A stretch of 64,000 bases of DNA from Elusimicrobiota bacterium (lineage in GTDB: Bacteria; Elusimicrobiota; Elusimicrobia; UBA1565; UBA9628). Below the pieces are notes generated by a model. It saw only the letters and a program-made list of their open reading frames with translations. It did no database searches and was not told the DNA's origin. The stretch spans positions 19,975-83,974 of the forward strand of contig JACRDT010000012.1 in assembly GCA_016212795.1 (NCBI GenBank). Direction: 5' to 3'. Shown here piece after piece: positions 10,720 through 38,692 of the stretch (its first letter is position 1; the number at the start of each line of letters is the position of its first letter). The position numbers were made by a program, and so were the translations under genes.

Positions 10720-12074
10720 AGCGCGCTCTCGTCGACCTCGCCCTCCGCTCCCTGGACTGGATCAAAAAGCAGTCGGCCAGCCTCGAGGCCGAGGTGTTCC
10801 TGGCCTCGGGCGAGGACCGCGGCATCGAGCTGAGGAACGGGGTGCTCGAAAGCCTCCAGAGCGTCAAGTCCGAGGGCGTGGGGTTGAGGGTGCTCGACGG
10901 CGGCAGGGTGGGCTTCGCCTCGGCGGGGGGGATGGACCTGGAGACGGTCCAGGGCCTCTACCGGAAGGTCGCCGAGCTCATGGAGCACCTCGAGCCCGAC
11001 GACAAGATGGGCTTCCCCGCGGCCGCGAAGGACTTTTCCCCGGAGGAGGCGTTCGAGGCTTCCCTGTGGGACGACTCCTTGTTCGGCGGCAGGCTGGAGG
11101 GCTGGCAGCGGCGCCTCGGCGCGGTCCAGGCGCGGGTCATGGGCGGCGACAAGCGCATCCGGACGGTCCTGCGGCTCGGCTACGGCGAGTCGCGCGGCGA
11201 GGTGGTGGTCGCCAACACGAGAGGGGTCGCGGCCTACGAGAGGGGCTCGTCGGCCACGGTGGGGCTTTCGGTGCTCGCGGCGGGCAAGGATGAGGAGCTC
11301 CAGGTCGGGGCCGCCTTCCAGTCCTCCCGGCGCAAAGCCGATCTCGACCTCGACCGGCTCGCCGACGACGGCGCCCGGCGCGCCACCTCGCTCCTCGACG
11401 CCCGCAAGCTGCCGGGCGGCCGCCGGGCGGTGGTCATCGACCCCTGGGTGGCCGGCGAGCTGCTGGACCTGGTGGCGGAGCTCCTCTGCGCCGACTCGGT
11501 CCAGCGGGGAAAATCCATGCTGGCGGGCAGGATCGGCCGCCGGATCGGCTCGGAGCTCGTCACCATCGTCGATGACCCGAAGATCGCCGGCGGCATCGCC
11601 AGCTCCGTCTACGACGACGAGGGCTGCCCGACCGTCAGGAAGACCATGGTCGAGCGGGGCGTCCTGCGGGACTATTTCTACGACACGTACACGGCCAACA
11701 AGGATGGGCGCCCGTCCAACGCCAGCGCCAGCCGCGGCTCCTACAGGGGCATCCCCGGGCCCGCTCCCTCCAACCTCCACATGGCCGCGGGCTCGACTTC
11801 GCGCGAGAAGGTCATCGCGGACACCAACGACGGCATCCTGGTCCTCGACATCCTGGGGATGCACATGGTCGACCCGGTCGCCGGCGAGATCTCGGTCGGG
11901 GTCTCGGGCATCGCCATCGAAGGCGGGCGCTTGACCCACGCCGTCAAAGGTTGCATGATATCGGGCAACATCCTGGAGCTCCTCGGGGGGATCGACATGG
12001 TCGGTGATGACCTGACGTTCTACGGCGCGCTGGGCTCGCCCACGTTCCGGATATCGGAGATGACGGTGGCGTGA
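10716..12074 (+). CDS. pmbA: TldE/PmbA-family metalloprotease component (cytoplasmic, no HExxxH)
   Basis: 452 aa; PmbA/TldD fold signatures (..GYGESRGEVVVANTRGV.., ..GILVLDILGMHMVDPVAGEISVGVSGIAIEGG..); ATG 10716 overlaps upstream stop. Confidence 0.75.
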   Translation: MKRALVDLALRSLDWIKKQSASLEAEVFLASGEDRGIELRNGVLESLQSVKSEGVGLRVLDGGRVGFASAGGMDLETVQGLYRKVAELMEHLEPDDKMGFPAAAKDFSPEEAFEASLWDDSLFGGRLEGWQRRLGAVQARVMGGDKRIRTVLRLGYGESRGEVVVANTRGVAAYERGSSATVGLSVLAAGKDEELQVGAAFQSSRRKADLDLDRLADDGARRATSLLDARKLPGGRRAVVIDPWVAGELLDLVAELLCADSVQRGKSMLAGRIGRRIGSELVTIVDDPKIAGGIASSVYDDEGCPTVRKTMVERGVLRDYFYDTYTANKDGRPSNASASRGSYRGIPGPAPSNLHMAAGSTSREKVIADTNDGILVLDILGMHMVDPVAGEISVGVSGIAIEGGRLTHAVKGCMISGNILELLGGIDMVGDDLTFYGALGSPTFRISEMTVA

Positions 12075-12075
12075 C

Positions 12076-12249
12076 ATGGCGATCGACCCCGAGCTCCTGA
12101 AGATCCTGGCCTGCCCCGTCTGCAAGACCCCCGTGGACTACCGTCCCGCCGAGTCCGCGCTCTTCTGCGCCAAGTGCCGCCGGCGCTTCGCGGTCAAAGA
12201 CGACATCCCCAACATGCTGCCGGACGAGGCGACCGTCCTGCCGGAGTAG
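12076..12249 (+). CDS. Trm112/UPF0434 (DUF343) family small zinc-ribbon protein, 57 aa (not in supplied ORF track)
   Basis: MAIDPELLKILACPVCKTPVDYRPAESALFCAKCRRRFAVKDDIPNML matches the Trm112p-like family consensus (ELLxILxCPxCKgxL...CxxCxxxYPIxDgIPxLL); ATG 1 nt after pmbA stop. Confidence 0.65.
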   Translation: MAIDPELLKILACPVCKTPVDYRPAESALFCAKCRRRFAVKDDIPNMLPDEATVLPE

Positions 12250-21759: not shown

Positions 21760-24339
21760 ATGTCCAACGCGCCGACCCTCAAGGACCCCGTCGCCGTCCT
21801 GCGCCGCTCCCGGCTGATGCAGTCCTTGCCGGAGGCCGGGCTGAAAGCCGTGTCGGCCGCCATGCGGCCCAGGGCGTTCGACCCTGGCCGGCTGCTCATC
21901 AAGCAAGGGGAGCCGGGCGGCTGCTTCTACCTCATCGCGTCCGGCTTGGTCGAGGTGCAGGTGCGCACGGAGGGGGGCACGACGGCCGTCGTGGCCACGC
22001 TGCGCGAGGGGGATTGCCTCGGGGAGATGTCCCTCCTGTCGGGCGACGTCACCTCGGCGGACGCGCGGGCTCTCGAGCGGACCGAGACCCTGGCGCTGGA
22101 AGCCGGCGCCTTCGACGCCCTCCTGCAGGCCCATCCCGAGCTGCTGCGCGAGTTCGTCCGCATCCTGTCGCGCCGGCTGGGCGCGACCGACGTCGCGGTG
22201 GGGCTGGCCCGGGAGGACGAGAAGGCCCTCGCCCAACTGCTGCGGGAAGGGAAGGCCGACCAGTACGGCGAGCTGATCGGCAAGCACGCGACGATGACAG
22301 CGCTGAACCGGGAGATCGACAAGCACGCGTCGTCGGATGACCCTTTGCTCGTCCTGGGCGAGCGCGGCACGGGCAAGGAGATCGTGGCCAGGCTGGCCCA
22401 CCTCCGGGGGCCCCGCAAGGACGCGCCGATCGTCAGCGTGCAGTGCGACCAGATCAGCGAGACGCCCTGGGGCGACAAGCTCTTCGGCCTCCACCACAAG
22501 GGCGCCGGCACCCCGCGCTCCCGCGGCGTGTGCTACATGACCCTGGCGGAAGGCGGGACGCTCGTCCTCAAGGATGTCGAGCTGCTCCCCGTCCCCATCC
22601 AGGAGCGGCTGGCGGAGTTCATCGAGAAGAACCCGGGGGCCAAGGCCGGCCTGCGGTTCATCGCGACCTCCCGGGCGCGCCTGGTCGAGCTGGCCCAGAC
22701 CGGGAAGGTGTCCGAGTCGCTGGCCCGGGCCTTCGCGGGCGGCGCCATCGTCGTGCCGCCGCTGCGGGACCGCAAGCGGGACATCGGCGAGCTGGCCCGC
22801 CATTTCGTCCGCCGGCACGCCGAGCGGCTCAACAAGCCGGTCCAGGGCCTCAGCGACCAGGCCATGACCAAGCTGGTCTCCCACGACTACCGCGGCGCCA
22901 ACATCCAGGAGCTCAAGGAAGCCCTGGAGCGCGCCGTGGTCCTCACGGACGACAAGACGGTCGGCGCCGAGGAGATCTTCCTCGGCCATCCCGCCAAGGC
23001 GCGGCGGCACATCTTCAACTTCCTGTCCCTCAAGACCGCGCTGGTGCGCCGGGCGCTGGTGGTGGTGCCGAGGATGGTGCGCCCCTTGAGCGCGGTCTTC
23101 TTCGCCTTCATCCTCTACCAGTGCTTCGCCGGGACCCCGCGGGACGGCGGCAACCTGGGCGTCGTGCTGGTGTGGGCGGTCTGGTGGCCGGCGCTGGCCC
23201 TGTCGTTCTTCGTCGTGGGGCGCCTGTGGTGCGCGGTCTGCCCGATGGCCCTGGCCGGGTCCGGAGCGCAGCGGGTCCGGGGGCTCAAGTGGCGCATCCC
23301 GGCGTGGCTGAAAGACCACGACACCTATCTCGCGCTGGCGGGCTTCACCGGCATCATCTGGCTCGAGGAGGCCACGGGGATGCGGCACGCGCCCGTCGCC
23401 ACGGGGCTGTTCCTGCTCTCCATCCTGGCGGGCGCCGCGACCGCGAGCGTCCTCTTCCCCCGTCGGACCTGGTGCCGGCATCTCTGCCCCCTGGGCTTCT
23501 TCGCCGGACTGTGCTCGGAGTCGGCCATGCTCGAGCTGCGGCCGACGGCGGACATCTGCTCGGCCAAGTGCACGGGCCATGCGTGCTACAAGGGCGACGA
23601 GCGGGTCGCGGGGTGCCCCGTGTTCAACCACGTGATGTTCATGGACTCGAACCAGCACTGCGTCCTGTGCATGAACTGCGTGCAGACCTGCCCCAACGAC
23701 TCGGTCCAGCTGAACCTGCGGCTGCCCGCCTCCGAGCTGTGGTCGCGGCCGAACGTGGAGAAGGGCGCGGCCAGGTTCTTCGCCGTGCTGCTGGGCCTTC
23801 TGCCGTGCCTGGCCTTCATCCAGCATTGGGATGCGACGCTCCAGGCGGGGTGGGCGTGGCTCCTGGCGGGGCACCGCACCGCGTCCCTGACCATCATCCT
23901 CGGCCTGGGCGTCGCGGCGCCTCTGGCCCTGCTCGAGTTGATCGTCCGCCCGCTCCACGACCCCGAGGACCCCTTGCCGGCCGAGCGGGTCTGGCGCAAG
24001 GTCCTGGCGTGGGGGCCCCTGGTGACGGCCGGGTTCGCGTGCTATCAGCTCGCCTATCTCCCCGGCATGGGCAACCTGCGGCTCGCCCTGGGGTTCCTGC
24101 CGCTCGAGGGAGGAGGGGTCCGGTCGCTGTGGCTGCCGGTGCTGGGCTTGAGCCGGGTCGCGATCATGGCCGCCGGGCTGATGACCTCCGCGGCCGTCAT
24201 GTGGAAGCTCGCGCATGACGCCAAGGGGAGCGGCGGCAAGAGGCGGCTCTGGGGGCATCTGCTGAACCTGGCCTGCGCCACGGCTTACGCGGCGGCCCTC
24301 ACCCTGCTCATGGTCAGACCCAGGTGGCTGGGATTATGA
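21760..24339 (+). CDS. Three-module protein: cNMP-binding (CAP effector) domain + sigma54-activator-type AAA+ ATPase lacking GAFTGA + NapH/NosR-like polytopic membrane polyferredoxin
   Basis: cNMP motifs GEPGGCFYLIASG..GEMSLL; Walker A GERGTGKE; bEBP core (..IVVPPLRDRKRDIGELARHF..DYRGANIQELKEALERAV) with the GAFTGA position reading GAGTPRS; no HTH; C-terminal TM region with CAVCP and CRHLCP (CX2-3CP) motifs plus one atypical cluster CSAKCTGHAC..GCP and one canonical 4Fe-4S cluster CVLCMNCVQTCP. Confidence 0.75.
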   Translation: MSNAPTLKDPVAVLRRSRLMQSLPEAGLKAVSAAMRPRAFDPGRLLIKQGEPGGCFYLIASGLVEVQVRTEGGTTAVVATLREGDCLGEMSLLSGDVTSADARALERTETLALEAGAFDALLQAHPELLREFVRILSRRLGATDVAVGLAREDEKALAQLLREGKADQYGELIGKHATMTALNREIDKHASSDDPLLVLGERGTGKEIVARLAHLRGPRKDAPIVSVQCDQISETPWGDKLFGLHHKGAGTPRSRGVCYMTLAEGGTLVLKDVELLPVPIQERLAEFIEKNPGAKAGLRFIATSRARLVELAQTGKVSESLARAFAGGAIVVPPLRDRKRDIGELARHFVRRHAERLNKPVQGLSDQAMTKLVSHDYRGANIQELKEALERAVVLTDDKTVGAEEIFLGHPAKARRHIFNFLSLKTALVRRALVVVPRMVRPLSAVFFAFILYQCFAGTPRDGGNLGVVLVWAVWWPALALSFFVVGRLWCAVCPMALAGSGAQRVRGLKWRIPAWLKDHDTYLALAGFTGIIWLEEATGMRHAPVATGLFLLSILAGAATASVLFPRRTWCRHLCPLGFFAGLCSESAMLELRPTADICSAKCTGHACYKGDERVAGCPVFNHVMFMDSNQHCVLCMNCVQTCPNDSVQLNLRLPASELWSRPNVEKGAARFFAVLLGLLPCLAFIQHWDATLQAGWAWLLAGHRTASLTIILGLGVAAPLALLELIVRPLHDPEDPLPAERVWRKVLAWGPLVTAGFACYQLAYLPGMGNLRLALGFLPLEGGGVRSLWLPVLGLSRVAIMAAGLMTSAAVMWKLAHDAKGSGGKRRLWGHLLNLACATAYAAALTLLMVRPRWLGL

Positions 24340-27175: not shown

Positions 27176-27526
27176 TCAGTCCCACATGCGCCTGGTCGGG
27201 ACGCCGAGCGTCCTTTCCGCGATAACGGCGGATATGCGCTTGCGCGGGATCGGCAGCACGACCAGATCGCAATAGAGCGCGTCGAAGAGTTTGCGCAAGG
27301 TGGCGAGCTGCGGCTCGAAATGCCCTTTCTCCATCGACGCCAGGTTTCCCTGGGAGACTCCCGCGCGCCCAGCCAGCTGGCGCTGAGTCATGTGCAGAGC
27401 GACGCGCAGGGTCCGAACCCATTGGCCCGCCTCAAGGCGCACGGCGGCGGGCGGCGCGGCGCCGGCGCATTGGAGCCGGTGCAGGGCTCTCCTGTGAGCG
27501 ATCGTCACGCCGCTGAGCTTGGGCAA
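27176..27526 (-). CDS. XRE-family helix-turn-helix transcriptional regulator
   Basis: HTH LHMTQRQLAGRAGVSQGNLASMEKG; 116 aa. Confidence 0.7.
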   Translation of the reverse strand: MPKLSGVTIAHRRALHRLQCAGAAPPAAVRLEAGQWVRTLRVALHMTQRQLAGRAGVSQGNLASMEKGHFEPQLATLRKLFDALYCDLVVLPIPRKRISAVIAERTLGVPTRRMWD

Positions 27527-27553
27527 GGGGTCCTCCGAACCTCCATATGGCTA

Positions 27554-27573
27554 TGATTCGACATATCGAATCA
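27554..27573. promoter_or_regulatory. Operator-like palindrome TGATTCGA-CATA-TCGAATCA in the XRE promoter region
   Basis: 8-bp inverted arms with 4-bp spacer, 28 nt upstream of the XRE start; second copy at 27756-27775. Confidence 0.5.
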
Positions 27574-27663
27574 AAATCACACGGACATGAAAAGGGCCCC
27601 TGCCCCCGGTCGGAGAGCGGCGCCGCGCTTCGACCTCGGCGGGGGCGAAGGGTCGAAGTCCAC

Positions 27664-27716
27664 GATGACCGCCCACATGCGCCTGGTCGGACGTCTGGCG
27701 CCCTTCGTTTCGGCGC
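27664..27716 (-). pseudogene. Remnant of a second XRE gene 3' end (encodes ..PTRRMW..), part of a degenerate tandem duplication
   Basis: cccacatgcgcctggtcgg repeated at 27180-27200 and 27668-27688; minus-strand translation AETKGARRPTRRMWAV vs XRE C-terminus AERTLGVPTRRMWD. Confidence 0.3.
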
Positions 27717-27755
27717 TAAGCCCCGGAAGGCGTCGTTTGGGTTCCCATGCAGCTA

Positions 27756-27775
27756 TGATTCGACATGTCGAATCA
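27756..27775. promoter_or_regulatory. Second copy of the operator palindrome (perfect: TGATTCGA-CATG-TCGAATCA) within a degenerate duplicated segment
   Basis: About 55-bp segment 27751-27806 is ~85% identical to 27551-27605. Confidence 0.45.
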
Positions 27776-27891
27776 AAACGATATGGACATCAAAGGGGCC
27801 CCCCTTTGAACTCGGCGCCGTTGAGGTCAGTCGGGCCCTGCTTGGAGTCCTGAACGTCCTGTTTGGCAGTAGCGGCGGCGGTCTGATAGCG

Positions 27892-28377
27892 TCAGGAGCG
27901 GCCGGATTCGAGGGCCTTGATGCGGCCCTCGTGGTCCTTGACCTGGGCCTGGACTTCGGTCAGGGAGTGGCCGTGGAGCACGGCGGCCCGGTCGTAGCTC
28001 TGCGCCTTGCCGGCGAAGGAGTCGATGGCGCTAAGGATGCGCTGGATGTCCTCCTTGGTGGAGAGCCCTTTCATCGTTTGCTGAATGCCGCGGATATCTG
28101 ACTGCGTTTGCACGATTGCCTTGGCGAGGCGGTGCTGGACTCCTTCGATCTTTCCGTCCAGACGAGTCTCGACGGCCTTGAGCTCGCCGCGCAGGGCATC
28201 CGTGGTCGTCTTGATGTCGGACTTGAGCTCTCCGCGCACGGTGTCCGCGGTGGATTTGATCTCGCCGCGCAACATGGCCGCGGTGGCCTGAAGTTCTCCC
28301 CGCAGCATGGCTGCCGTGGCATCGAGGTGGCCCCGCGTGGCCGGGCTGCTCGCTTCAGCGTGAGTCATGTCGTCCAT
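27892..28377 (-). CDS. Coiled-coil protein with AAMLRGEL heptad-like repeats, hypothetical
   Basis: ..TAAMLRGELQATAAMLRGEIKSTADTVRGELKSDIKTTTDALRGELKAVETRLDGKIEG..; start ambiguous (ATG 28377 after a GGGGGAA Shine-Dalgarno, or upstream to 28461). Confidence 0.45.
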   Translation of the reverse strand: MDDMTHAEASSPATRGHLDATAAMLRGELQATAAMLRGEIKSTADTVRGELKSDIKTTTDALRGELKAVETRLDGKIEGVQHRLAKAIVQTQSDIRGIQQTMKGLSTKEDIQRILSAIDSFAGKAQSYDRAAVLHGHSLTEVQAQVKDHEGRIKALESGRS

Positions 28378-28589
28378 TATATCATTCCCCCGGAACCGCG
28401 TAAGAGTCGAAAGCCCCATCCGGCCGTGGGCCTCCGCCATGTATACGAATGAAAGGCCCATTTGGTTCCGCGCGCTGGAATGCCCACGATCTGGCGGTCA
28501 AGAGAAACGCTGCCCGATTCCCGCCTCTGCGTTGTCGAAATAGGATAGAATGAACCACTGACCGGACTCACGCAGGACGGGGTGGCACG

Positions 28590-30770
28590 ATGACGCTCTG
28601 CAGACGCTTCCGGCTCGTCGCATGGGTGCTGGCCCTTGGCGCCATGGGCGGCCCGGGAGCGACGGCCCAGGACCGGTGGCCGGACCTCGCCGCGCCCGCC
28701 AAGGCCGTGGGCGGGGGCGGGCACGACGCGGCCGTGGTGGTGGGCGTGGAGGATTACCTCCTCGTGGCCGACGTGCCGGGGGCCGAGGCCAACGCCAAGG
28801 CGTGGTACGACTACTTCACCGAGACGCGCGGGCTGCCGGTCCAGAACGTCAAGCTCGTGACCGGCGTGGACGCCACCCGCGAGGAGATGCTCGCCGCGGT
28901 GCGCAGCGCGGCCGGCAAGGCCGGGCAGGATGGGACGCTGTGGTTCGTGTTCATCGGGCACGGGGCGCCGTCCAAGGACGGCAAGGACGGGCTCCTGGTG
29001 GCCGTGGACGCCCAGCAGAAGGCCGCCACCCTCCAGGAGAGGAGCCTCAAGCGCTCGGAGCTCCTCAAGGCGCTCTCTGAGAGCCGCGCCGGCTCCATCC
29101 GGGTCGTGCTCGACGCGTGCTTCTCCGGCAGGCTGGCGGACGGCGGCTCGATCGCGCCGGGGCTTCAGCCCCTGGTCACGGTATCGATGGCCGATCCCAC
29201 CGACGCCAGGATGGTGGTCCTGACGGCAGCCAGAGGCAACCAGTTCGCCGGCGCCCTGCCTGGAGCCAGGCGACCCGCGTTCAGCTACCTGGTGCTGGGG
29301 GGGCTTCGCGGCTGGACCGGGAAGGCCACGGTGACTGCCGGGGACCTGTGGCGCTACGCCGTCGACGCCCTGGAGGCTACCCTGCGCGGCAGGGACCAGT
29401 GGCCCGAACTGATCGGCCGCCAGGACGCGGTGGTCGGCGCTGCCGCGGGCGAGAAGGGCCCGAACCTCGCCGGCCTGGCCAAAGCCACGGCAGGGGCAGG
29501 GGCGCAGGATGAGATGTTCCGGGTCTCGAACCTGCCGCGGGTCCCCAAGGCCCAGGCGCCCGCGGCCGTCGCGGACATGGCCGGCGGGGCGGATTTCCGC
29601 AACCTGGACGTGGAGGCGCTGGGGCGCTACGACGAAGCCACGAAGTTCGACGAGGGCGAGGCTTCTCCCGAGGAGAAGGCGTCCAAATGGCTCGAGCTGG
29701 CCAAGAGCGCGCCGCAGTTCGCCGGGAAAGCCGAGGCGAGGGCGGCCCAATGGGACCGCTACGCCCAGGAGCTCGCCGCGGGCCAGGAGGCGCGTCAGAA
29801 GCGCGCCGAGGCCATGGACAGGGACTGGGAGAAGTTGGGCAAGCTGTTGGCCATGAGGGTGGTGCCCGACGCGGACAAGAAGCGCTGGGCGGCGGCGTTC
29901 GTCGAGGCGTACGGCAGGACCTCGCGGGAGAACCCCTATGTCGCGGACCTGGCCAGGCACCTGCCGCCGGGGACGGTCAAGGTCGAGCCCGGAGCCAAGG
30001 CGTCCGCCGGCGGCCGCGCCGGGTCGGTCCAGGCCGGCAAAGCCGGCGTCGAGTGGGTGAGGATCCCGGGCGGGACCCTCGCGATGGGCGCCGACGACCG
30101 GCCGGAGACGAAGCCCCGGCATCCCGTGACGGTCAAGGCCTTCCAGCTGGCGAGGACCGAGGCGACCAACAAGCAGTACCGCGCCTGCGTCGAGGCCGGG
30201 GCCTGCTCCCCCGCGCATGCCTCGGACGGGACATGCCGGGTGTGGGACGGCGGCCAATGGGCTCTCGGCAGCCTGGCGGCCTCGTTCCAGGCCGACGACC
30301 ACCCCGTGGTGTGCGTGGACTGGGGCCAGGCGAAAGCCTTCGCCGAATGGGCCGGGGGGAGGCTCCCGAGCGAGGCGGAGTGGGAGCACGCGGCCCGCGG
30401 CGCCGGCAAGGAGCGGGCGTACCCCTGGGGCGACGAGGAGCCCACGTGCGAGCGGGCCGTGATGAGCCAGGACGACAACGGCTGCGCGAGGAACGCGACG
30501 TGGCCCGTGTGCTCGAAGGCCGCCGGGAACACGGCGCAGGGGCTCTGCGACATGGCGGGCAACGTCGGGGAGTGGACGCAGGACTGGTATCACGCCTCGT
30601 ACGACGGCGCGCCGGCCGACGGTCTCGCCTGGGAGAGGCCAGCGTCCGCGGCCCGGGTCGTCCGCGGCGGGGGCTGGGGCAACGACGCCGACGGCGTCCG
30701 GGCCGCGTACCGCGTCGGCTACGACCCGGGCGAGCTCAGCGACTACCTCGGCGTGCGTCCCGCCCGCTGA
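28590..30770 (+). CDS. Secreted caspase-like (peptidase C14) domain fused to a formylglycine-generating-enzyme (FGE-sulfatase/SUMF1-like) domain
   Basis: Signal peptide; caspase His/Cys dyad contexts FVFIGHGAP and RVVLDACFSG; C-terminal FGE fold (WVRIPGGTLAMGADD..HPVVCVDWGQAKAFAEWAGGRLPSEAEWEHAARG..GNVGEWTQDWY). Confidence 0.8.
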   Translation: MTLCRRFRLVAWVLALGAMGGPGATAQDRWPDLAAPAKAVGGGGHDAAVVVGVEDYLLVADVPGAEANAKAWYDYFTETRGLPVQNVKLVTGVDATREEMLAAVRSAAGKAGQDGTLWFVFIGHGAPSKDGKDGLLVAVDAQQKAATLQERSLKRSELLKALSESRAGSIRVVLDACFSGRLADGGSIAPGLQPLVTVSMADPTDARMVVLTAARGNQFAGALPGARRPAFSYLVLGGLRGWTGKATVTAGDLWRYAVDALEATLRGRDQWPELIGRQDAVVGAAAGEKGPNLAGLAKATAGAGAQDEMFRVSNLPRVPKAQAPAAVADMAGGADFRNLDVEALGRYDEATKFDEGEASPEEKASKWLELAKSAPQFAGKAEARAAQWDRYAQELAAGQEARQKRAEAMDRDWEKLGKLLAMRVVPDADKKRWAAAFVEAYGRTSRENPYVADLARHLPPGTVKVEPGAKASAGGRAGSVQAGKAGVEWVRIPGGTLAMGADDRPETKPRHPVTVKAFQLARTEATNKQYRACVEAGACSPAHASDGTCRVWDGGQWALGSLAASFQADDHPVVCVDWGQAKAFAEWAGGRLPSEAEWEHAARGAGKERAYPWGDEEPTCERAVMSQDDNGCARNATWPVCSKAAGNTAQGLCDMAGNVGEWTQDWYHASYDGAPADGLAWERPASAARVVRGGGWGNDADGVRAAYRVGYDPGELSDYLGVRPAR

Positions 30771-30871: not shown

Positions 30872-31810
30872 ATGTTCTTCGAGGGACGAGAGAAGAAGGT
30901 GGAGATCGCCTTGGCGCCGGGGAACCCTCCCCTGCGCGGCCGGGGGCGCGCGTACTGGGCGCGCATCGTGGCGGCCTCGCGCGCCCGGATCATCTCGGAG
31001 CTGTCCAACGACCGGATGGACGCGTACCTGCTCTCCGAGTCGAGCCTCTTCGTCACCGACCAGTGGCTCACCATGATCACGTGCGGCCGCACGGACCTGG
31101 CCGCCGCCGTCCTGCGGATGGCCGACGACCTGGGCGTCGAGAACCTCCAGTACCTGATTTACGAGCGCAAGAACGCCTTCTTCCAGGAGTTCCAGCCCAC
31201 CAACTTCCTCGACGACCTCAAGAAGCTCTCGCGGAGGATCCCGGGCCAATCCTACCGCTTCGGCGACGGGGACGACCACCACGTCTTCCTCTTCCACCTC
31301 GACCGGCCCCACCGGGCGGACCCCGACGACCGTACCCTCGAGATCCTCATGCACGGCATCGACGCGGCCGCCGCGCGCACCTTCATGGCCGGTCCCCAGC
31401 ACCGAGGGAAGTTCATCAGGGAGCGGTCCGGGGTGTGGTCCATCCTCCCGGGCTTCGAGGTCGACGACCACCTTTTCGAGCCCATGGGCTATTCGCTCAA
31501 CGCCGTCCGCGGGGCGAAGTACTACACGATCCACGTCACCCCGCAGAAGGTCGGCTCGTACGTGAGCTTCGAGACCAACCTGGTGGGGGCCGGCGCCAAC
31601 AAGACCGTCCGCCGGGTCCTGGACATCTTCAAGCCGCGCTCCTGCGACATCATCCTCTTCCAGCCCCTGGGCCAGCGGCGGGACATCCGGTGCTCCTACC
31701 TGCTCAAGCGGGCCGTCCGCCAGCACCTTTCCAACGGCTACCGGGTGACCTTCGACCACCGCTTCAGGCCCGTCAGGGTCCCGGCCCCGGCCGTCGAGGT
31801 GCTCCTGTGA
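30872..31810 (+). CDS. speD: S-adenosylmethionine decarboxylase proenzyme, eukaryotic-type (class II)
   Basis: MFFEGREKKVEI N-terminus and self-processing site LSESSLFV (cf. eukaryotic AdoMetDC ..YVLSESSMFV); 312 aa. Confidence 0.75.
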   Translation: MFFEGREKKVEIALAPGNPPLRGRGRAYWARIVAASRARIISELSNDRMDAYLLSESSLFVTDQWLTMITCGRTDLAAAVLRMADDLGVENLQYLIYERKNAFFQEFQPTNFLDDLKKLSRRIPGQSYRFGDGDDHHVFLFHLDRPHRADPDDRTLEILMHGIDAAAARTFMAGPQHRGKFIRERSGVWSILPGFEVDDHLFEPMGYSLNAVRGAKYYTIHVTPQKVGSYVSFETNLVGAGANKTVRRVLDIFKPRSCDIILFQPLGQRRDIRCSYLLKRAVRQHLSNGYRVTFDHRFRPVRVPAPAVEVLL

Positions 31811-34975: not shown

Positions 34976-37900
34976 TCATCGCTGCACCGCCACGGTGACG
35001 GTCCTGGAGCCTCCGGCTCCCTGGGCCAGGACGTGGTAGACCCCGCTGGCCACGGGCCGGCCATGCATGTTGGTCCCGTCCCAGGACGCCAGGCCGGCCG
35101 AGTTCGCGTTGAAATCCTTTATGAGCTCGCCGGTCTGGGTGTAGATTCTCAGCCTCGCGAGAGCCGGCAGGTTGAAGAAGCCCATGGCCGCGTGGCCCTG
35201 CGCGGGTCTCAACGGGTTGGGGATGGCTTTCACCCTGGAGAGCGTGTCGGCGGGGTTGGACACCATGATCTGGAACACCGAGAGGTGCCGGGTCGCGGCT
35301 GAGACCTTGTTGCCCGCGCCGTCCACGGTGGAGAGCAGCGGGACCCAGCCCAAGGCCGGGTCGTAGCGGGCCAGGATCAGCTTGCTCTCGTCCTTGCCCG
35401 CCACGTCCGAATCGCGGTATGGGACGGCGATCGTGACGCTGCGAAAGGGCTGGATGGGCTTGTCCAAGACCACCTCGAGCCCGACCGCGAGAGCGCTCAT
35501 GCCCGCGGGTGCCGGCCCGGTCGGGAAGGACGCGGGGGAACGCAGGGTGATGCCGACCGCCTCGGAGAAGGCCAGGGCCGGGATGGCCAGGGACGCCTCC
35601 CCGGTCGGGGAGACGTACGTCAGCGTGCCGCCCGCGGCCGCGCTGACGGCCGCGCTCGAGGGCTGGGTGACCATGACGGACGCGTCGGTCGACAGGTCCC
35701 CGAAGGCTTCCACTCCTTCCTGAAGGACCCGCCACTGGAAGTCGTAGGTCCCCGTCGCGGACGGCGCCTTGGCCGCCACCACCCAGGAGCCGGTCGCGCC
35801 CGGGAGCACCGAGACAGAGGCGCTCAAGGTGGACCGGCTCGTCCCCCATGTCGCGTTGTCATCCGGGTTCCTCGAAGCGAGCTTGTAGCCGCTGGCCGCG
35901 TCCCAGGTCAGGGTCCCGGCGTTGCGGAAGGCGACGGTCGCGCCGAAGACCTCGCCCGCCGTCACCGCGAGGGGAACGCTCTGCGAGACGAAGACGGACT
36001 GGTTGGGCGAGGAGGCGCCCGACTTGAGCTCGGAGAGCAGGCGGATGAGGAAGCCCGCCTCGCCGATGTGCCAGGTCCAGGCCCGCCCGGGCAGGAACTT
36101 GGCGCGCGTGCCGGCGTCGAAGCTCTCCACGGTCGCGAGGTCCCCGGCCGCCTTGCCGGCCACGGCCAGGGCCACCCACGGGAAAGGGTCGGCCTGGTTG
36201 GAGACCCAAGAGGACTTGTGGTTGTCCAGGAACTTCTGCCACAACGCGCCCTTGCGGGCCGCCGCTTCAGGCAGGCCGAAGACGATGGGCCAGAGGTTGG
36301 CCGCGGCGTCGGCGTAGAAGGTGGACCAGTCGGTCGACCCGCCGCGGAACTTCACGTAGTTGCCTTCCGCCGGCTTCCAGAGGTTCGTCTCGATGGCGGC
36401 GCGGACCGCCGCGGCCTTGGCTTGGTAGGTCGATGATGCGGCATCGCCCGCCGCTCCCAGGAGGAAGGCGAAGTCGAGATAACCCTTCCACACCTCCACG
36501 TTGTCCATGAGGAGCTCGAAGGCGTAGTCGGGCTTGCCGTAGGTGAGGTCGGTGGCCTGCAGGGTCGCGTCGATGGCGCCGGCCACGGTCTTGAGGTCCG
36601 CGAGGCTGGCCTGGACGAAGGCGAGGTCGCCGCTCACGTCGTAGTACGTCCTGAAGAGGGACAGGAAGGTGGCGGCATAGGAGTCGGAGGAGTCGTAGCT
36701 GCCGGCCGAGACCTCGTTGCCGGCCACGATGTCGTAGTCGTAGACCGTCCCATGGACGGCCAGATGGTCCGGGCGGTTCAGATGCGCCAGATACCACTGC
36801 AGGTACTGCTTGACTCTGGCGGCTCGGGACGGATCCGCCTTCAAGGCCTCGGTCAGGGCCAAGTTGGCGAAATAGGGAACGACCTTGCCGCCCGGAGCGT
36901 TCAGGAAGGAGCCCGTGGGCCTGGAGAGGTCCCCGAAGATCCAGGCCGCCTCGTCTTGGATGCGGCGGTCGTAGGAGGTCGAGCCGTGGAGGAAGTTCGA
37001 GAGCGCATGCCAGGCCGGGGCTTTGCTGCCGTCGGGCCGGAACAAGCCGAAGCCCGGGCAGGCCCCGGGAGGGTTGGGTTGGTCGTTCTGGCATTCGTTG
37101 TCGATGATCTGCCAGAAGAAGGCGAGCGGGATCCCGGCGTCGAGGAAGGCCCGGGCCGCGATGTCGGTGCGGTTCCCGGAATCCGCGAATTGGCCCTCGG
37201 TGAAGCCGTACTCGGCGATGAGGAGGTCCCTCCCTTGGGCCGACGGGTGGCGGCGGATGAAGGCCAGGTCGTCGAGTATCTTGCGCCGCAGGTTGGCGGT
37301 GGGGGTGCTCGAGATGGTCTGCCAGGAGGAATAGGACATGAGGTCGGAGTCGGCGCCGGCGAGCACGTCCTTGAGCCAGCATGGCCTGTCCCGGCGCGCG
37401 AACTCCACCTGGGTGAATTCCGCGGCGTCGAGCACCCGCACGCCCGGGAGCCCCGCAAGCTCGGTCCTGGCCTGAACGACGCCTTCGTGGCGGGCGTTGA
37501 GCCAGTCCGTGAAGGCCTGGGTCTGGGTCGCGTCGGGCTGGTAGTAGGGCTCGAAGTTCTCGTCCATGAGCCAGTCGCCTTCCCAGTTCTTGAGGATGAA
37601 GGTCTTGCCCGTGCCCTGGTAGGTCTGCAGGAGGTATTCCGCGAGGTCGTGGAACTCGGCCTTCTCGTTGGCGTATCTCGCGGGGCCCAGGGCGCCGCGG
37701 GGATGGGTGTTGATCCACGGTTCGTTCACGAAGGAGTGCGCCGTGACGACGAACGTCGTGAAGCTCATGCTGAAGAGCTGCTGGAACGGCGCGGTCTGGG
37801 CCAGGGCCTTGAGGCTGGCGATGGGGCCCGCGCCGAAGTCCGTGGCGGGGTAGACGGTCGGGTAGCCCGGGGTGAGGTAGACGAAGATCGCGTTGGGGTT

Positions 37901-38692
37901 GAGGTTGGCGACGAGCTTGGCCCCTTCGAAGAGGAAGGGCTCCGTGGTCAGGCGGTAGTCGCCCCCGCCGTGGAAAGCGCTCAGAGTCTGGGTGGCGATG
38001 GAAGGGACCGCCGCGGTCAGGCTCGCCTGGACGGCCAGATTGACCTTGCCGATGTGCCCTCCGATGGAGACCTGTCTGGTCCAGTACCCGGCGTCTTCGG
38101 CCGCCCAGGCGGGGCCCGAGCCCGTCCAATAGCCGTTGCCGTCCGTGGTCTGGCCCAGGTCAGCGTCGTTCTGGACTTGGACGCCGTTCTTCCAGCCGGA
38201 CCAGAGGATGGCGGCGCCGGCGGGCGCGCCGACCACGGTGTAGAAAGGCGTCTCGCCCGCCTGGTAGGCCGAGTGGTCGGAGTCGAGCCTCGGACGTACC
38301 GTGATGGACAGGTTGGGAGTCGTTTCCCCGAACCATTCCACCCCTTCCTGCACCATCCGCCATTGGAAGTTCGCGGGGCCGGGGGTGGGGGTGCCGAAGA
38401 CCCTGAAGGAGAAGGCGGCGTTCTGACCGGGAGCGACCGGGGCGGTCAACGCCACCCTGCCCGTGGTCTGCATCCAGATGCCGTTGTCTTGAGGGTTCTG
38501 CGACCCCAGCCGGTGGAGGGCGGCTTCGCTCCAGGTGGTGTCGCCGGTGTTCTTGAAAGTGACCTGGGCGTAGTAGGTGACGCCTGAGATCATCTCCGTG
38601 GGCACGTTCTGGGACACGAATTGGGCGTCGTTGAGGGCATGGCATGGGGCCGCCATCAGCCCGAGCAGGGCGCCGGCCAGGGCGTTTCTCAT
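34976..38692 (-). CDS. Large (1238 aa) secreted multi-domain glycoside-hydrolase-like protein with two NBR1/CARDB-like Ig domains and a C-terminal T9SS-type (Por_Secre_tail/FlgD-Ig-like) sorting domain
   Basis: Signal peptide; duplicated F(V)SQxVP..V.F.N.G..TW..FQWR(M/V)(V/L)QEGVE.FG domains at N-terminus and ~aa 830; central TIM-barrel/(alpha/alpha)6-like GH-type regions; C-terminal ..LRIYTQTGELIKDF..WDGTNMHGRPVASGVYHVLAQG.. resembles T9SS CTDs. Confidence 0.65.
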   Translation of the reverse strand: MRNALAGALLGLMAAPCHALNDAQFVSQNVPTEMISGVTYYAQVTFKNTGDTTWSEAALHRLGSQNPQDNGIWMQTTGRVALTAPVAPGQNAAFSFRVFGTPTPGPANFQWRMVQEGVEWFGETTPNLSITVRPRLDSDHSAYQAGETPFYTVVGAPAGAAILWSGWKNGVQVQNDADLGQTTDGNGYWTGSGPAWAAEDAGYWTRQVSIGGHIGKVNLAVQASLTAAVPSIATQTLSAFHGGGDYRLTTEPFLFEGAKLVANLNPNAIFVYLTPGYPTVYPATDFGAGPIASLKALAQTAPFQQLFSMSFTTFVVTAHSFVNEPWINTHPRGALGPARYANEKAEFHDLAEYLLQTYQGTGKTFILKNWEGDWLMDENFEPYYQPDATQTQAFTDWLNARHEGVVQARTELAGLPGVRVLDAAEFTQVEFARRDRPCWLKDVLAGADSDLMSYSSWQTISSTPTANLRRKILDDLAFIRRHPSAQGRDLLIAEYGFTEGQFADSGNRTDIAARAFLDAGIPLAFFWQIIDNECQNDQPNPPGACPGFGLFRPDGSKAPAWHALSNFLHGSTSYDRRIQDEAAWIFGDLSRPTGSFLNAPGGKVVPYFANLALTEALKADPSRAARVKQYLQWYLAHLNRPDHLAVHGTVYDYDIVAGNEVSAGSYDSSDSYAATFLSLFRTYYDVSGDLAFVQASLADLKTVAGAIDATLQATDLTYGKPDYAFELLMDNVEVWKGYLDFAFLLGAAGDAASSTYQAKAAAVRAAIETNLWKPAEGNYVKFRGGSTDWSTFYADAAANLWPIVFGLPEAAARKGALWQKFLDNHKSSWVSNQADPFPWVALAVAGKAAGDLATVESFDAGTRAKFLPGRAWTWHIGEAGFLIRLLSELKSGASSPNQSVFVSQSVPLAVTAGEVFGATVAFRNAGTLTWDAASGYKLASRNPDDNATWGTSRSTLSASVSVLPGATGSWVVAAKAPSATGTYDFQWRVLQEGVEAFGDLSTDASVMVTQPSSAAVSAAAGGTLTYVSPTGEASLAIPALAFSEAVGITLRSPASFPTGPAPAGMSALAVGLEVVLDKPIQPFRSVTIAVPYRDSDVAGKDESKLILARYDPALGWVPLLSTVDGAGNKVSAATRHLSVFQIMVSNPADTLSRVKAIPNPLRPAQGHAAMGFFNLPALARLRIYTQTGELIKDFNANSAGLASWDGTNMHGRPVASGVYHVLAQGAGGSRTVTVAVQR

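What the first reader, a model, noticed from the sequence alone, without database searches (positions are those of the whole stretch)
28590..30770. Secreted caspase (C14) - FGE-sulfatase fusion next to an XRE regulator and coiled-coil gene
**Seen in sequence.**
- Signal peptide, then a caspase domain with the His/Cys dyad (FIGHGAP, LDACFSG).
- A full FGE/SUMF1-type domain follows at the C-terminus.

**Established knowledge.** FGE-sulfatase domains recur as fusion partners of caspases and kinases in several phyla, with no known function.

**Inference.** The caspase may process or activate a substrate recognised by the FGE-like lectin/oxidase fold. The neighbourhood (XRE, degenerate duplication, coiled-coil protein) has a mobile or phage-remnant flavour.
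Basis: partly seen in the sequence, partly recalled or inferred. Interest (0 to 1): 0.55.

Follow-up and report, generated by a model that had tools for sequence, protein, structure and literature searches.

The report
Secreted caspase protease with lectin-like tail
This gene of an uncultured groundwater bacterium (Elusimicrobia) encodes an exported caspase-type protease tied by a helical stalk to a non-enzymatic, lectin-like binding domain; it is a fairly ordinary member of a large, uncharacterised family, and one relative has its binding surface hypermutated by a retroelement.

Summary
ORF 28590-30770 (+) encodes 726 aa: a signal peptide, a caspase-fold domain with a conserved His124/Cys177 dyad, a confident helical stalk, and a complete FGE-sulfatase fold.

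Pfam's Peptidase_C14 model misses this protein. NCBIfam and PADLOC caspase models, a profile alignment to the yeast metacaspase His, and a fold search (MALT1, metacaspases) all support the caspase call.

The FGE domain lacks the copper-binding Cys pair, so it is not a formylglycine-generating enzyme. It is most likely a C-type-lectin-like ligand binder.

The protein belongs to a large, mostly Elusimicrobia family. The exported caspase head is constant. The tail varies: FGE, Sel1, MORN, Kelch or prolyl isomerases.

Neighbours are not conserved, so the XRE and coiled-coil genes are incidental.

One relative (L005) is a clear diversity-generating retroelement (DGR) target, with Avd and a template repeat (21 of 22 mismatches at template adenines). 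The homologous positions are the most variable in the family, and 15 of 16 are NNC codons here. The window holds no template repeat or reverse transcriptase.

Best reading: an extracytoplasmic protease aimed by a variable binding domain. It is a new member of a known kind and of moderate interest.

The parts
28590..30770 (+). Whole gene, 726 aa plus stop: signal peptide, caspase-fold domain, helical stalk, FGE/CLec-like domain
   Evidence: ORF list. 100% identical to an NCBI Elusimicrobia MAG protein named 'SUMF1/EgtB/PvdO family nonheme iron enzyme'. AF2 model has mean pLDDT 90.2.
28590..28670 (+). Predicted Sec signal peptide (aa 1-27, cleavage after A-T-A); no lipobox
   Evidence: Read from the sequence: RRFR, hydrophobic core LVAWVLALGAM, then ATA|Q. 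Low-pLDDT N-terminal helix in the model. Equivalent hydrophobic N-termini in relatives. Inferred; no predictor was run.
28722..29489 (+). Caspase (clan CD, C14-like) domain, aa 45-300
   Evidence: NF047832 E 6.7e-23. PADLOC caspase E 4.8e-13. Foldseek to MALT1, metacaspases and CED-3, E down to 1.6e-11. Profile alignment to Yca1.
28959..28961 (+). Codon of His124, the predicted catalytic histidine (FIGHGAP)
   Evidence: Aligned to the catalytic His of yeast metacaspase Yca1 (YSGHGG). Invariant in 69 relatives. Sits just after strand 116-122.
29118..29120 (+). Codon of Cys177 (TGC), the predicted catalytic cysteine (LDACFSG). Asp175, two residues before it, is invariant.
   Evidence: At least 90% conserved. 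Sits just after strand 169-175. The D-x-C-x-S-G motif has the same form as the metacaspase DSCHSG (established knowledge). One relative, P0100, has lost both His and Cys.
29592..29969 (+). All-helical stalk or spacer domain (about aa 335-460), with conserved K363, W367, R384, W388, D412, W413. No known family.
   Evidence: AF2 helices 341-354, 360-373, 375-421, 427-441 and 451-457, with block pLDDT means mostly 83-95. No Pfam hit. An extra copy of the helical repeat is inserted in P0020, P0059, P0111 and L005.
30051..30767 (+). FGE-sulfatase fold (C-type-lectin-like), aa 488-726. Non-catalytic: it lacks the Cu-binding Cys pair of formylglycine-generating enzymes.
   Evidence: PF03781 E 2.6e-54. 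Foldseek to FGE and PvdO. Profile alignment shows the 'ylC...syC' cysteines of S. coelicolor, T. curvata and human FGE have no counterpart. Family-specific cysteines are conserved: C533 and C539 invariant in 29 relatives, C620, C632, C641 and C653 at 90% or more.
30678..30749 (+). Hypervariable C-terminal segment (aa 697-720, GNDADGVRAAYRVGYDPGELSDYL). It is homologous to the DGR variable region of relative L005 and is the predicted ligand-binding face.
   Evidence: Columns homologous to L005 template-adenine codons have entropy 3.04 vs 1.17 bits for the rest of the domain (Mann-Whitney p 3e-9). 15 of 16 codons are NNC (P 0.003 given the amino acids). No template repeat in the window.
27176..27526 (-). 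Neighbour, not shown to be linked: XRE-family HTH regulator (116 aa)
   Evidence: HTH_3 E 2.5e-10. Weak match to TIGR02612 'mobile mystery protein A'. Homologs flank one other family member, L126.
27543..27802 (.). Neighbour: XRE promoter/operator plus a decayed second copy. Two 58-nt repeats each carry the palindrome GATTCGACATRTCGAATC. A 19-nt copy of the XRE 3' end lies at 27672-27690.
   Evidence: Repeats D2 and D13. Palindrome found only at 27555 and 27757, with 0.01 expected by chance.
27892..28461 (-). Neighbour, not shown to be linked: 189-aa coiled-coil protein with 15-residue repeats, transcribed divergently
   Evidence: Only weak, below-cutoff Pfam matches to other coiled-coil proteins (Apolipoprotein, Baculo_PEP_C). 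45-nt tandem repeats. A weak homolog (24% identity, E 2e-4) sits next to the L005 family member only.

Best explanation
The gene encodes an exported (periplasmic or secreted) cysteine endopeptidase of the caspase/metacaspase fold. An active His124/Cys177 head is held on a rigid helical stalk. The C-terminal FGE-fold domain is not an enzyme but a C-type-lectin-like ligand-binding module.

Proposed mechanism:
- The C-terminal face of the FGE-like domain (aa 697-720) binds a specific protein or glycan ligand outside the cytoplasm.
- Binding brings, or activates by clustering, the caspase head, which then cleaves the bound target or a neighbouring one.
- Cleavage is probably after a basic residue, because the Asp-x-Cys motif is the metacaspase/paracaspase form rather than the caspase Gln-x-Cys form.

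The protein is one member of a large family, mostly from Elusimicrobia. The exported caspase head is constant and the targeting tail is swapped.

Shown: the domain folds, dyad conservation, absence of the FGE cysteines, family modularity, hypervariability of the binding face, and DGR targeting of that face in one relative.

Inferred: export, proteolytic activity, P1 preference, ligand-directed action and the biological role.
For: Caspase fold and dyad:
- Model hits and profile alignment.
- H124 is invariant and C177 is at least 90% conserved in 69 relatives.
- Only one relative seen has lost both residues (P0100).

Non-catalytic FGE domain:
- Full fold, but the Cu-binding Cys pair is missing.
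- EgtB, PvdO, SenA and GldK models score 79-89 bits against cutoffs of 350-500, and match only the shared fold.

Binding role:
- In relative L005 the same C-terminal segment is a DGR variable region. 21 of 22 VR/TR mismatches lie at template adenines, and a bAvd gene sits between VR and TR.
- DGRs diversify ligand-binding faces of CLec folds (PMC10907252, PMC7159879).
- The homologous columns are by far the most variable in the family (p 3e-9).

Extracytoplasmic location:
- Signal peptide.
- Conserved extra cysteines in the FGE domain.
- Sister architectures with Cys-rich Sel1 repeats, FkpA-like FKBP_N+FKBP_C and cyclophilin.

Stand-alone, modular gene:
- Neighbours differ in every locus inspected.
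- The caspase head has 857 representative clusters at E<=1e-30.
- Among 69 complete members, tails are FGE 26, MORN 4, Sel1 3, FKBP 2, cyclophilin 1, Kelch 1 and PEGA 1.
Against: - No biochemical data exist for any member.
- Pfam's own C14 model does not recognise this protein, and the NCBIfam score is below its cutoff. The domain is therefore a divergent caspase.
- The residue aligned to the second S1-pocket Asp of metacaspases is Asn68, so basic P1 specificity is uncertain.
- Export rests on sequence reading, not on a predictor.
- No substrate or partner gene is identifiable because no neighbour is conserved.
- Coordinates of the model could not be inspected, so the His-Cys distance was not measured.
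Confidence: 0.6

Rival explanations
1. The gene is, or recently was, a target of a diversity-generating retroelement whose template repeat and reverse transcriptase lie outside the 64-kb window. On this reading the protein is a hypervariable extracytoplasmic receptor fused directly to a caspase effector. This is an add-on to the best explanation, not an alternative to it.
For: - Relative L005 has target-VR-bAvd-TR, with 21 of 22 mismatches at template adenines.
- The window's aa 697-720 align in register with that VR/TR.
- These positions are the most variable columns of the domain in the family.
- 15 of 16 codons there are NNC, as expected from mutated AAC codons (binomial 1.4e-4; 0.003 conditional on the amino acids).
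- K, E, Q, M and W, which NNC codons cannot encode, are half as frequent there as elsewhere in the domain (10.5% vs 20.2%).
Against: - There is no template repeat anywhere in the window and no DGR-type reverse-transcriptase motif.
- No Avd fits: only 101 nt separate the stop codon from the next gene.
- Only 1 of 26 FGE-type relatives has a VR/TR pair within its flanks.
- L005's FGE domain is of a divergent subtype, as in P0111, which lacks the family's extra cysteines.
- Many relatives carry K, E, Q or W at these positions.
- One relative's protein (P0059) is identical on at least 24 contigs, so it is not hypermutating.
- The NNC test was post hoc.
Confidence: 0.18
2. The FGE domain is catalytic. 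It would be either a formylglycine-generating or other copper/iron oxidase (as the public name 'SUMF1/EgtB/PvdO family nonheme iron enzyme' and the first reader's 'oxidase' suggest). The caspase domain would then process the oxidase's substrate.
For: - Strong PF03781 match and FGE-like fold.
- Best PDB sequence hits include FGEs, PvdO and EgtB.
Against: - Both Cu-binding cysteines are absent in the whole family.
- EgtB, OvoA and SenA need an N-terminal DinB-type iron domain that is not present. The matches cover only the C-terminal fold, at 79-89 bits against cutoffs of 360-420.
- The equivalent surface is hypermutated by a DGR in a relative, which is incompatible with a fixed active site.
Confidence: 0.05
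3. It is a cytoplasmic or membrane-associated abortive-infection effector of the EACC1-caspase or STAND/vWA 'conflict system' type. The FGE domain would sense phage proteins inside the cell, and the caspase would cleave a pore-forming partner.
For: - The best caspase model is NCBIfam 'caspase, EACC1-associated type', and a PADLOC caspase model also hits.
- FGE-type sensors and caspase effectors are recurrent in such systems (PMC7159879, PMC10907252, PMC13581612, bioRxiv 10.1101/2025.11.14.688446).
Against: - The score is below the family cutoff (81 vs 140 bits).
- The protein has a signal peptide.
- There is no co-directional upstream EACC1-like gene. The upstream gene is divergent, is a soluble coiled coil, and gives no EACC1 hit.
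- No MoxR, vWA or STAND partners appear in any of the loci inspected.
- Sister tails are periplasm-type modules.
Confidence: 0.05
4. The caspase-like domain is a non-catalytic scaffold (a pseudo-protease), and the protein is purely an adhesin or binding protein.
For: - Pseudo-orthocaspases are known in bacteria (PMC6426788; listed).
- One relative (P0100) has Gln and Ser in place of the dyad.
- Pfam C14 fails on this protein.
Against: - The dyad and surrounding motifs are invariant or nearly so in 69 relatives, including this one: GHG, D-A-C-F-S-G and RPAFSYLxLGxLRGW. Such conservation is not expected without catalysis.
Confidence: 0.08

Closest known systems
Prokaryotic metacaspase/orthocaspase-FGE-sulfatase fusions (Asplund-Samuelsson et al. 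2012, PMC3501461)
   Same: Same two-domain logic: an N-terminal C14-type caspase homolog and a C-terminal PF03781 domain. It was reported as the fifth most common partner domain (33 of 671 sequences), and some carry N-terminal hydrophobic helices that may be signal peptides.
   Different: - Those were detected with the Pfam C14 model, which does not hit this protein.
- This family has an additional conserved helical stalk and a clear signal peptide.
- It belongs to an Elusimicrobia-centred radiation with interchangeable tails.
- That paper assumed formylglycine chemistry, but the catalytic cysteines are absent here.
DGR-diversified CLec/FGE-type sensors fused or linked to peptidase effectors in bacterial conflict systems (Kaur et al. 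2020, PMC7159879; Dore et al. 2024, PMC10907252)
   Same: - An FGE-type C-type-lectin fold sits at the C-terminus and the effector domain at the N-terminus.
- The variable binding face lies in the last 40 or so residues.
- One relative (L005) carries VR, bAvd and TR with adenine-specific changes.
   Different: - There are no MoxR, vWA, STAND or EAD partners.
- The protein is exported rather than mainly cytoplasmic.
- The window gene itself has no template repeat, Avd or reverse transcriptase within 64 kb.
- Most relatives lack them too.
MALT1 paracaspase and type I metacaspases (Yca1, TbMCA2), and the bacterial GSU0716 structure
   Same: These are the best structural matches for aa 28-300. They share the catalytic His in a GHG motif, and an Asp two residues before the catalytic Cys, as in Arg/Lys-specific C14B enzymes.
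   Different: - Identity is only 15-19%.
- The second S1 Asp of metacaspases is Asn68 here.
- There is no death, Ig or proline-rich prodomain.
- The protein has an extracytoplasmic setting.
PvdO, and the PorK/GldK FGE-fold proteins
   Same: FGE-fold proteins that PvdO and PorK/GldK exemplify. That they work in the periplasm and lack the FGE catalytic cysteines is from my own knowledge, not tested here. PvdO is the top PDB sequence hit (E 1.1e-19).
   Different: NCBIfam scores are far below the equivalog cutoffs (88 vs 500 and 89 vs 350). There is no lipoprotein signal and no pyoverdine or T9SS gene context.

Membership tests
Peptidase family C14 (caspase, metacaspase, orthocaspase; clan CD) | Caspase/hemoglobinase fold | tested here: met
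   AF2 model of aa 28-300 (pLDDT 86, pTM 0.90). Foldseek to MALT1, GSU0716, metacaspases and CED-3 at probability 1.00, E 1.6e-11 to 1e-8.
Peptidase family C14 (caspase, metacaspase, orthocaspase; clan CD) | His-Cys catalytic dyad at the ends of the two central strands | tested here: met
   H124 aligns to the Yca1 catalytic His. H124 follows strand 116-122 and C177 follows strand 169-175. H124 is invariant and C177 at least 90% conserved in 69 relatives. The His-Cys distance was not measured.
Peptidase family C14 (caspase, metacaspase, orthocaspase; clan CD) | Match to Pfam PF00656 at its gathering score | tested here: not met
   No hit for this protein, even at E<=10. 13 of 29 and 15 of 69 relatives match at E<=0.01 and E<=0.001 respectively.
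Peptidase family C14 (caspase, metacaspase, orthocaspase; clan CD) | Peptidase activity and P1 specificity | not testable with these tools
   Needs enzyme assays. The D175-x-C177 motif suggests a basic P1, but this is inference.
NCBIfam NF047832 caspase, EACC1-associated type (EACC1-caspase two-gene system) | Score at or above the 140-bit cutoff | tested here: not met
   81.3 bits, E 6.7e-23, covering aa 47-263 against model positions 2-210 of 211.
NCBIfam NF047832 caspase, EACC1-associated type (EACC1-caspase two-gene system) | Co-directional upstream gene encoding the small single-TM EACC1 protein | tested here: not met
   The upstream gene (27892-28461) is on the opposite strand and is a 189-aa coiled coil with no EACC1 hit at E<=1 in NCBIfam.
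Formylglycine-generating enzyme (SUMF1/FGE) | FGE-sulfatase fold | tested here: met
   PF03781 E 2.6e-54 over the full profile length. Foldseek TM about 0.7 to FGE structures.
Formylglycine-generating enzyme (SUMF1/FGE) | Pair of copper-binding catalytic cysteines after the RGGS motif | tested here: not met
   In profile alignments to S. coelicolor, T. curvata and human FGE, the first Cys lies in an insert absent here and the second aligns to a non-Cys position. The window sequence is RGGGWGNDADGVRAAYR.
EgtB/OvoA/SenA sulfoxide or selenoxide synthases (the 'nonheme iron enzyme' of the public annotation) | N-terminal DinB-like domain with the iron-binding His triad, and an equivalog-level score | tested here: not met
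   TIGR03440 scores 89 vs 360 and NF041186 scores 79 vs 420. The matches cover only the C-terminal FGE-like half of those models. The N-terminal part of this protein is a caspase domain plus helices.
DGR variable (target) protein | C-terminal CLec/FGE-type fold with the variable-region scaffold | tested here: met
   Gap-free, in-register alignment of 30662-30767 to the L005 template repeat. The variable columns coincide with L005 template-adenine codons.
DGR variable (target) protein | Cognate template repeat differing from the VR only at adenines | tested here: not met
   None in the 64-kb window. It is met in relative L005, with 21 of 22 mismatches at adenines. The rest of the genome was not available.
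DGR variable (target) protein | Nearby reverse transcriptase and Avd | tested here: not met
   There is no DGR RT motif in the window or in any family locus. bAvd is present only in L005.
DGR variable (target) protein | Codon signature of mutated AAC codons (NNC) at variable positions | tested here: inconclusive
   15 of 16 codons are NNC, P 0.003 given the amino acids. The test was post hoc and made in a GC-rich genome.

The most novel reading that the evidence does not exclude
Elusimicrobia may carry an extracytoplasmic counterpart of the 'variable receptor plus caspase' logic. In this reading, the exported protein's lectin-like binding face (aa 697-720) is, or recently was, rewritten by a diversity-generating retroelement acting in trans. 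Each lineage would then display a different recognition specificity wired directly to a protease outside the cytoplasm, for example against phage particles, competitors or host surfaces.
Probability: 0.15. Interest if true: 0.7.

Novelty: new member of a known kind. Interest (0 to 1): 0.4.

Why it matters
Caspase-FGE fusions have been catalogued since 2012 without any function, and the public record calls this protein a 'nonheme iron enzyme', which the sequence does not support. The results here give a concrete and testable picture.
- The FGE part is a cysteine-less, hypervariable binder.
- In one relative it is a bona fide DGR target.
- The caspase head keeps an invariant dyad.
- The whole protein is exported.

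The result would be a protease whose target is set by a swappable or mutable lectin-like module. If confirmed, the annotation of hundreds of Elusimicrobia proteins would be corrected. The 'sensor plus caspase' theme of bacterial conflict systems would also be extended to the cell exterior. As it stands, the window gene is an ordinary member of that family with no conserved partners.

Tried and rejected
1. Pfam Peptidase_C14 on the protein and on its N-terminal part alone gave no hit. Other models, a profile alignment and the fold were needed.
2. Neighbourhood conservation was tested in five homolog loci inspected gene by gene, and by tblastn of the XRE and coiled-coil proteins against 83 family loci. 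No conserved partner emerged.
3. The XRE operator palindrome was sought upstream of the caspase gene and is absent there.
4. A template repeat was sought in the window by sensitive blastn. The best non-self hit (3210-3258) has random mismatches and is chance.
5. A DGR reverse-transcriptase motif scan of the window and 165 loci found it only in three unrelated FGE-only loci (L022, L046, L064).
6. The repeats near L097, L131, L133 and L140 lack adenine-specific mismatches and are probably copies of paralogous sequence, not template repeats.
7. The genome-contig scan was dominated by the generic FGE motif and returned only one full-length relative.
8. Exact look-ups of the window protein and of P0003 found no record.
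10. A paralog search found none in the window.
11. PADLOC and PHROGs gave only generic caspase, FGE and HTH matches.
Full report
**1. What is in the sequence**

The + strand ORF 28590..30770 encodes 726 aa. The window has about 69% GC, and an 826-aa ORF overlaps on the opposite strand. Only the + frame has domain hits and homologs.

The protein is 100% identical to an NCBI protein from an Elusimicrobia metagenome-assembled genome. That record is named 'SUMF1/EgtB/PvdO family nonheme iron enzyme'.

The N-terminus is MTLCRRFRLVAWVLALGAMGGPGATA|Q. It reads as a Sec signal peptide without a lipobox. In the model it is a low-confidence helix. Relatives have equivalent hydrophobic N-termini before a conserved WPDL motif.

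**2. The caspase domain**

Pfam's Peptidase_C14 model does not hit this protein, even at E<=10 on the N-terminal part alone. Five other lines of evidence agree that it is a caspase-fold domain:
- NCBIfam NF047832 ('caspase, EACC1-associated type') matches aa 47-263 at E 6.7e-23. This is 81 bits, below the 140-bit cutoff.
- A PADLOC caspase model matches aa 48-281 at E 4.8e-13.
- 13 of 29 and 15 of 69 relatives match PF00656.
- A profile of the domain aligns FIGH124G onto the YSGHG catalytic-His motif of yeast metacaspase Yca1.
- An AlphaFold model of aa 28-300 (pLDDT 86, pTM 0.90) finds MALT1 paracaspase, Geobacter GSU0716, metacaspases and CED-3 at probability 1.00 and E down to 1.6e-11.

His124 and Cys177 each sit just after a central strand. 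H124 is invariant and C177 is at least 90% conserved in 69 relatives. One relative (P0100) has lost both.

Asp175, two residues before the Cys, is invariant. This is the D-x-C form found in Arg/Lys-specific metacaspases and paracaspases, not the Q-x-C form of caspases (established knowledge). The residue aligned with the second S1 Asp of metacaspases is Asn68. A basic P1 preference is therefore only an inference.

**3. The FGE domain**

PF03781 covers aa 488-726 over the full profile at E 2.6e-54. The fold matches FGE and PvdO structures.

In profile alignments to S. coelicolor, T. curvata and human FGE, the two copper-binding cysteines (GGSylCHdSYCnRYR) have no counterpart. The first lies in an insert that the family lacks. 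The second aligns to a non-Cys position. The window sequence reads RGGGWGNDADGVRAAYR.

The EgtB, SenA, PvdO and GldK models score 79-89 bits against cutoffs of 350-500, and only over the shared fold. No DinB-type iron domain is present.

The domain is therefore not a formylglycine-generating enzyme or a sulfoxide synthase, and the public name is misleading. Family-specific conserved cysteines (C533 and C539 invariant in 29 relatives; C620, C632, C641 and C653 at 90% or more) fit a disulfide-bonded extracytoplasmic domain.

**4. A third domain**

**5. The family**

The full-length search gave 825 hits at E<=1e-5, and nearly all named ones are from Elusimicrobia. The caspase-plus-stalk part alone finds 857 representative clusters at E<=1e-30 and 9286 at E<=1e-3.

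The C-terminal module is interchangeable. Among 69 complete members from metagenomes:

| C-terminal module | Members |
|---|---|
| FGE-sulfatase | 26 |
| MORN | 4 |
| Sel1 | 3 |
| FKBP_N+FKBP_C | 2 |
| Cyclophilin | 1 |
| Kelch propeller | 1 |
| PEGA | 1 |
| No recognised tail | most of the rest |

Other arrangements also occur: double FGE (P0004), FGE plus cyclophilin (P0019), Cys-rich Sel1 (P0102) and no tail (P0088). All of these tails are binding or chaperone-type modules, several of them typical of the periplasm (established knowledge for FkpA-like FKBP).

**6. The neighbourhood**

Neighbours differ in every related locus inspected. Across 83 family loci, a weak homolog of the coiled-coil protein recurs only in L005. 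The XRE homolog recurs only in L126, as two copies flanking a caspase-Sel1 gene.

The XRE gene's 18-bp palindrome GATTCGACATRTCGAATC occurs only at 27555 and 27757. The first site is in its own promoter. The second lies in a decayed second copy, which also retains a 19-nt copy of the XRE 3' end at 27672-27690. No such site lies upstream of the caspase gene.

Several relatives sit beside toxin-antitoxin genes, integrases or prophage genes. The family therefore tends to lie in variable regions, but no partner is conserved. Within the window, the flanking genes beyond these neighbours look like ordinary chromosomal genes: a TPR membrane protein, SAM decarboxylase and spermidine synthase.

**7. 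The DGR lead**

The last 40 or so residues fit the scaffold of DGR variable regions in FGE-type C-type-lectin folds.

Relative L005 is an Elusimicrobia MAG protein with 42% identity, the same three-domain architecture and a signal peptide. Its features are:
- The 3' 124 nt of the gene (11487-11610) are repeated 559 nt downstream (12046-12169).
- 21 of the 22 differences lie at adenines of the downstream copy.
- The ORF between the two copies is a bAvd (PF22296, E 8.8e-15, above cutoff).
- No reverse transcriptase lies in the locus.

This is the signature of mutagenic retrohoming. It makes sense only if that surface binds ligands.

The window's positions homologous to L005's template-adenine codons (aa 697-720) have a column entropy of 3.04 bits, against 1.17 bits for the rest of the FGE domain (Mann-Whitney p 3e-9). 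In the window gene, 15 of those 16 codons are NNC (P 1.4e-4 against the gene-wide rate; P 0.003 given the amino acids).

Several results argue against an active DGR acting on the window gene:
- The window has no template repeat, no RT motif and no room for an Avd.
- Only 1 of 26 FGE-type relatives has a VR/TR pair.
- L005's FGE domain is of a divergent subtype, as in P0111, which lacks the family cysteines.
- Many relatives carry residues that NNC codons cannot encode.
- One relative's protein is identical on at least 24 contigs.

**8. Interpretation**

The best-supported mechanism is an exported caspase-fold cysteine endopeptidase, held on a helical stalk, whose target is chosen by a non-catalytic, hypervariable lectin-like FGE domain (confidence about 0.6). 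Activity, export, P1 preference and the nature of the ligand are inferred.

The rivals and their estimated confidences are:
- A remote or former DGR target (0.18; compatible with the main reading).
- A pseudo-protease (0.08).
- A catalytic FGE or iron enzyme (0.05).
- A cytoplasmic EACC1/STAND-type abortive-infection effector (0.05).

**9. Comparison with what is known**

The caspase-FGE architecture was described in 2012 (PMC3501461). FGE-type CLec domains have been proposed as sensors, often diversified by DGRs and combined with caspase or trypsin effectors (PMC7159879, PMC10907252, PMC13581612).

This protein is a new, divergent and exported member of that kind. It lacks the partner genes that define those conflict systems. 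It fails the membership tests for true FGE, EgtB, PvdO, GldK and the EACC1-associated caspase family. It passes the fold and dyad tests for C14.

**10. Verdict**

The finding is a new member of a known kind, of moderate interest (0.4).

The more novel reading is a DGR-rewritten extracytoplasmic receptor-protease. It is not excluded (probability about 0.15) and can be tested directly on the rest of the genome and on the reads.

Noticed in passing
L005:11487-12169 (Elusimicrobia MAG contig JACRDO010000026.1): A full-length relative of the window protein is a DGR target. The VR at the gene's 3' end and a TR 559 nt downstream differ at 22 positions, 21 of them at TR adenines, and a bAvd gene lies between them. 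No reverse transcriptase is found in the 21.6-kb locus, so the RT is either remote or lost.
   Followed up: yes
window 27543-27802: The XRE gene (27176-27526, minus strand) has an 18-bp palindromic operator-like site at 27555. A decayed second copy of the cassette follows, with a 19-nt copy of the gene's 3' end at 27672-27690 and a second palindrome at 27757. In L126, two intact paralogs of this XRE flank another family member.
   Followed up: partly
window 27892-28461 (minus strand); L005:12397-12723 (minus strand): A coiled-coil protein with 15-residue repeats has no family assignment. A weak homolog (24% identity, similar C-terminal 'HG..L......KDH..R..ALE.GR' end) lies next to the L005 family member, and in no other of the 83 loci.
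   Followed up: partly
L003:869-7325 and L004:678-7134: In one relative's locus, the caspase-FGE gene lies just downstream of a cluster of radical-SAM genes, two Oxidored_nitro (NifD/K-like) genes and a NifH-like gene. From memory, this resembles the nitrogenase-paralog cluster described for groundwater Elusimicrobia.
   Followed up: no
L166:10414-13974 and L167:9699-14547: The relative P0059 is encoded by an identical protein on at least 24 contigs. It borders an integrative element or prophage carrying a D12 methyltransferase, ORF6N, an integrase in one locus and an intein-containing portal in the other. A similar integrase, HTH_3 and ORF6N set lies upstream of relative P0038.
   Followed up: no
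window 30872-31810 and downstream to about 32685: The gene gives a strong match to Pfam PF01536 SAM_decarbox (209 bits), which from memory is the eukaryote-type S-adenosylmethionine decarboxylase. The frame that follows reads like a spermidine synthase (my reading of the translation, not run against any family library).
   Followed up: no
window 21760-24339: An 859-aa protein has an unusual architecture. It combines a cNMP-binding domain, a sigma-54 AAA+ activator domain and a C-terminal multi-pass membrane region with 4Fe-4S (Fer4_5) motifs.
   Followed up: no
window 34976-38692 (minus strand): A 1238-aa predicted secreted protein lies close downstream. It was not analysed.
   Followed up: no
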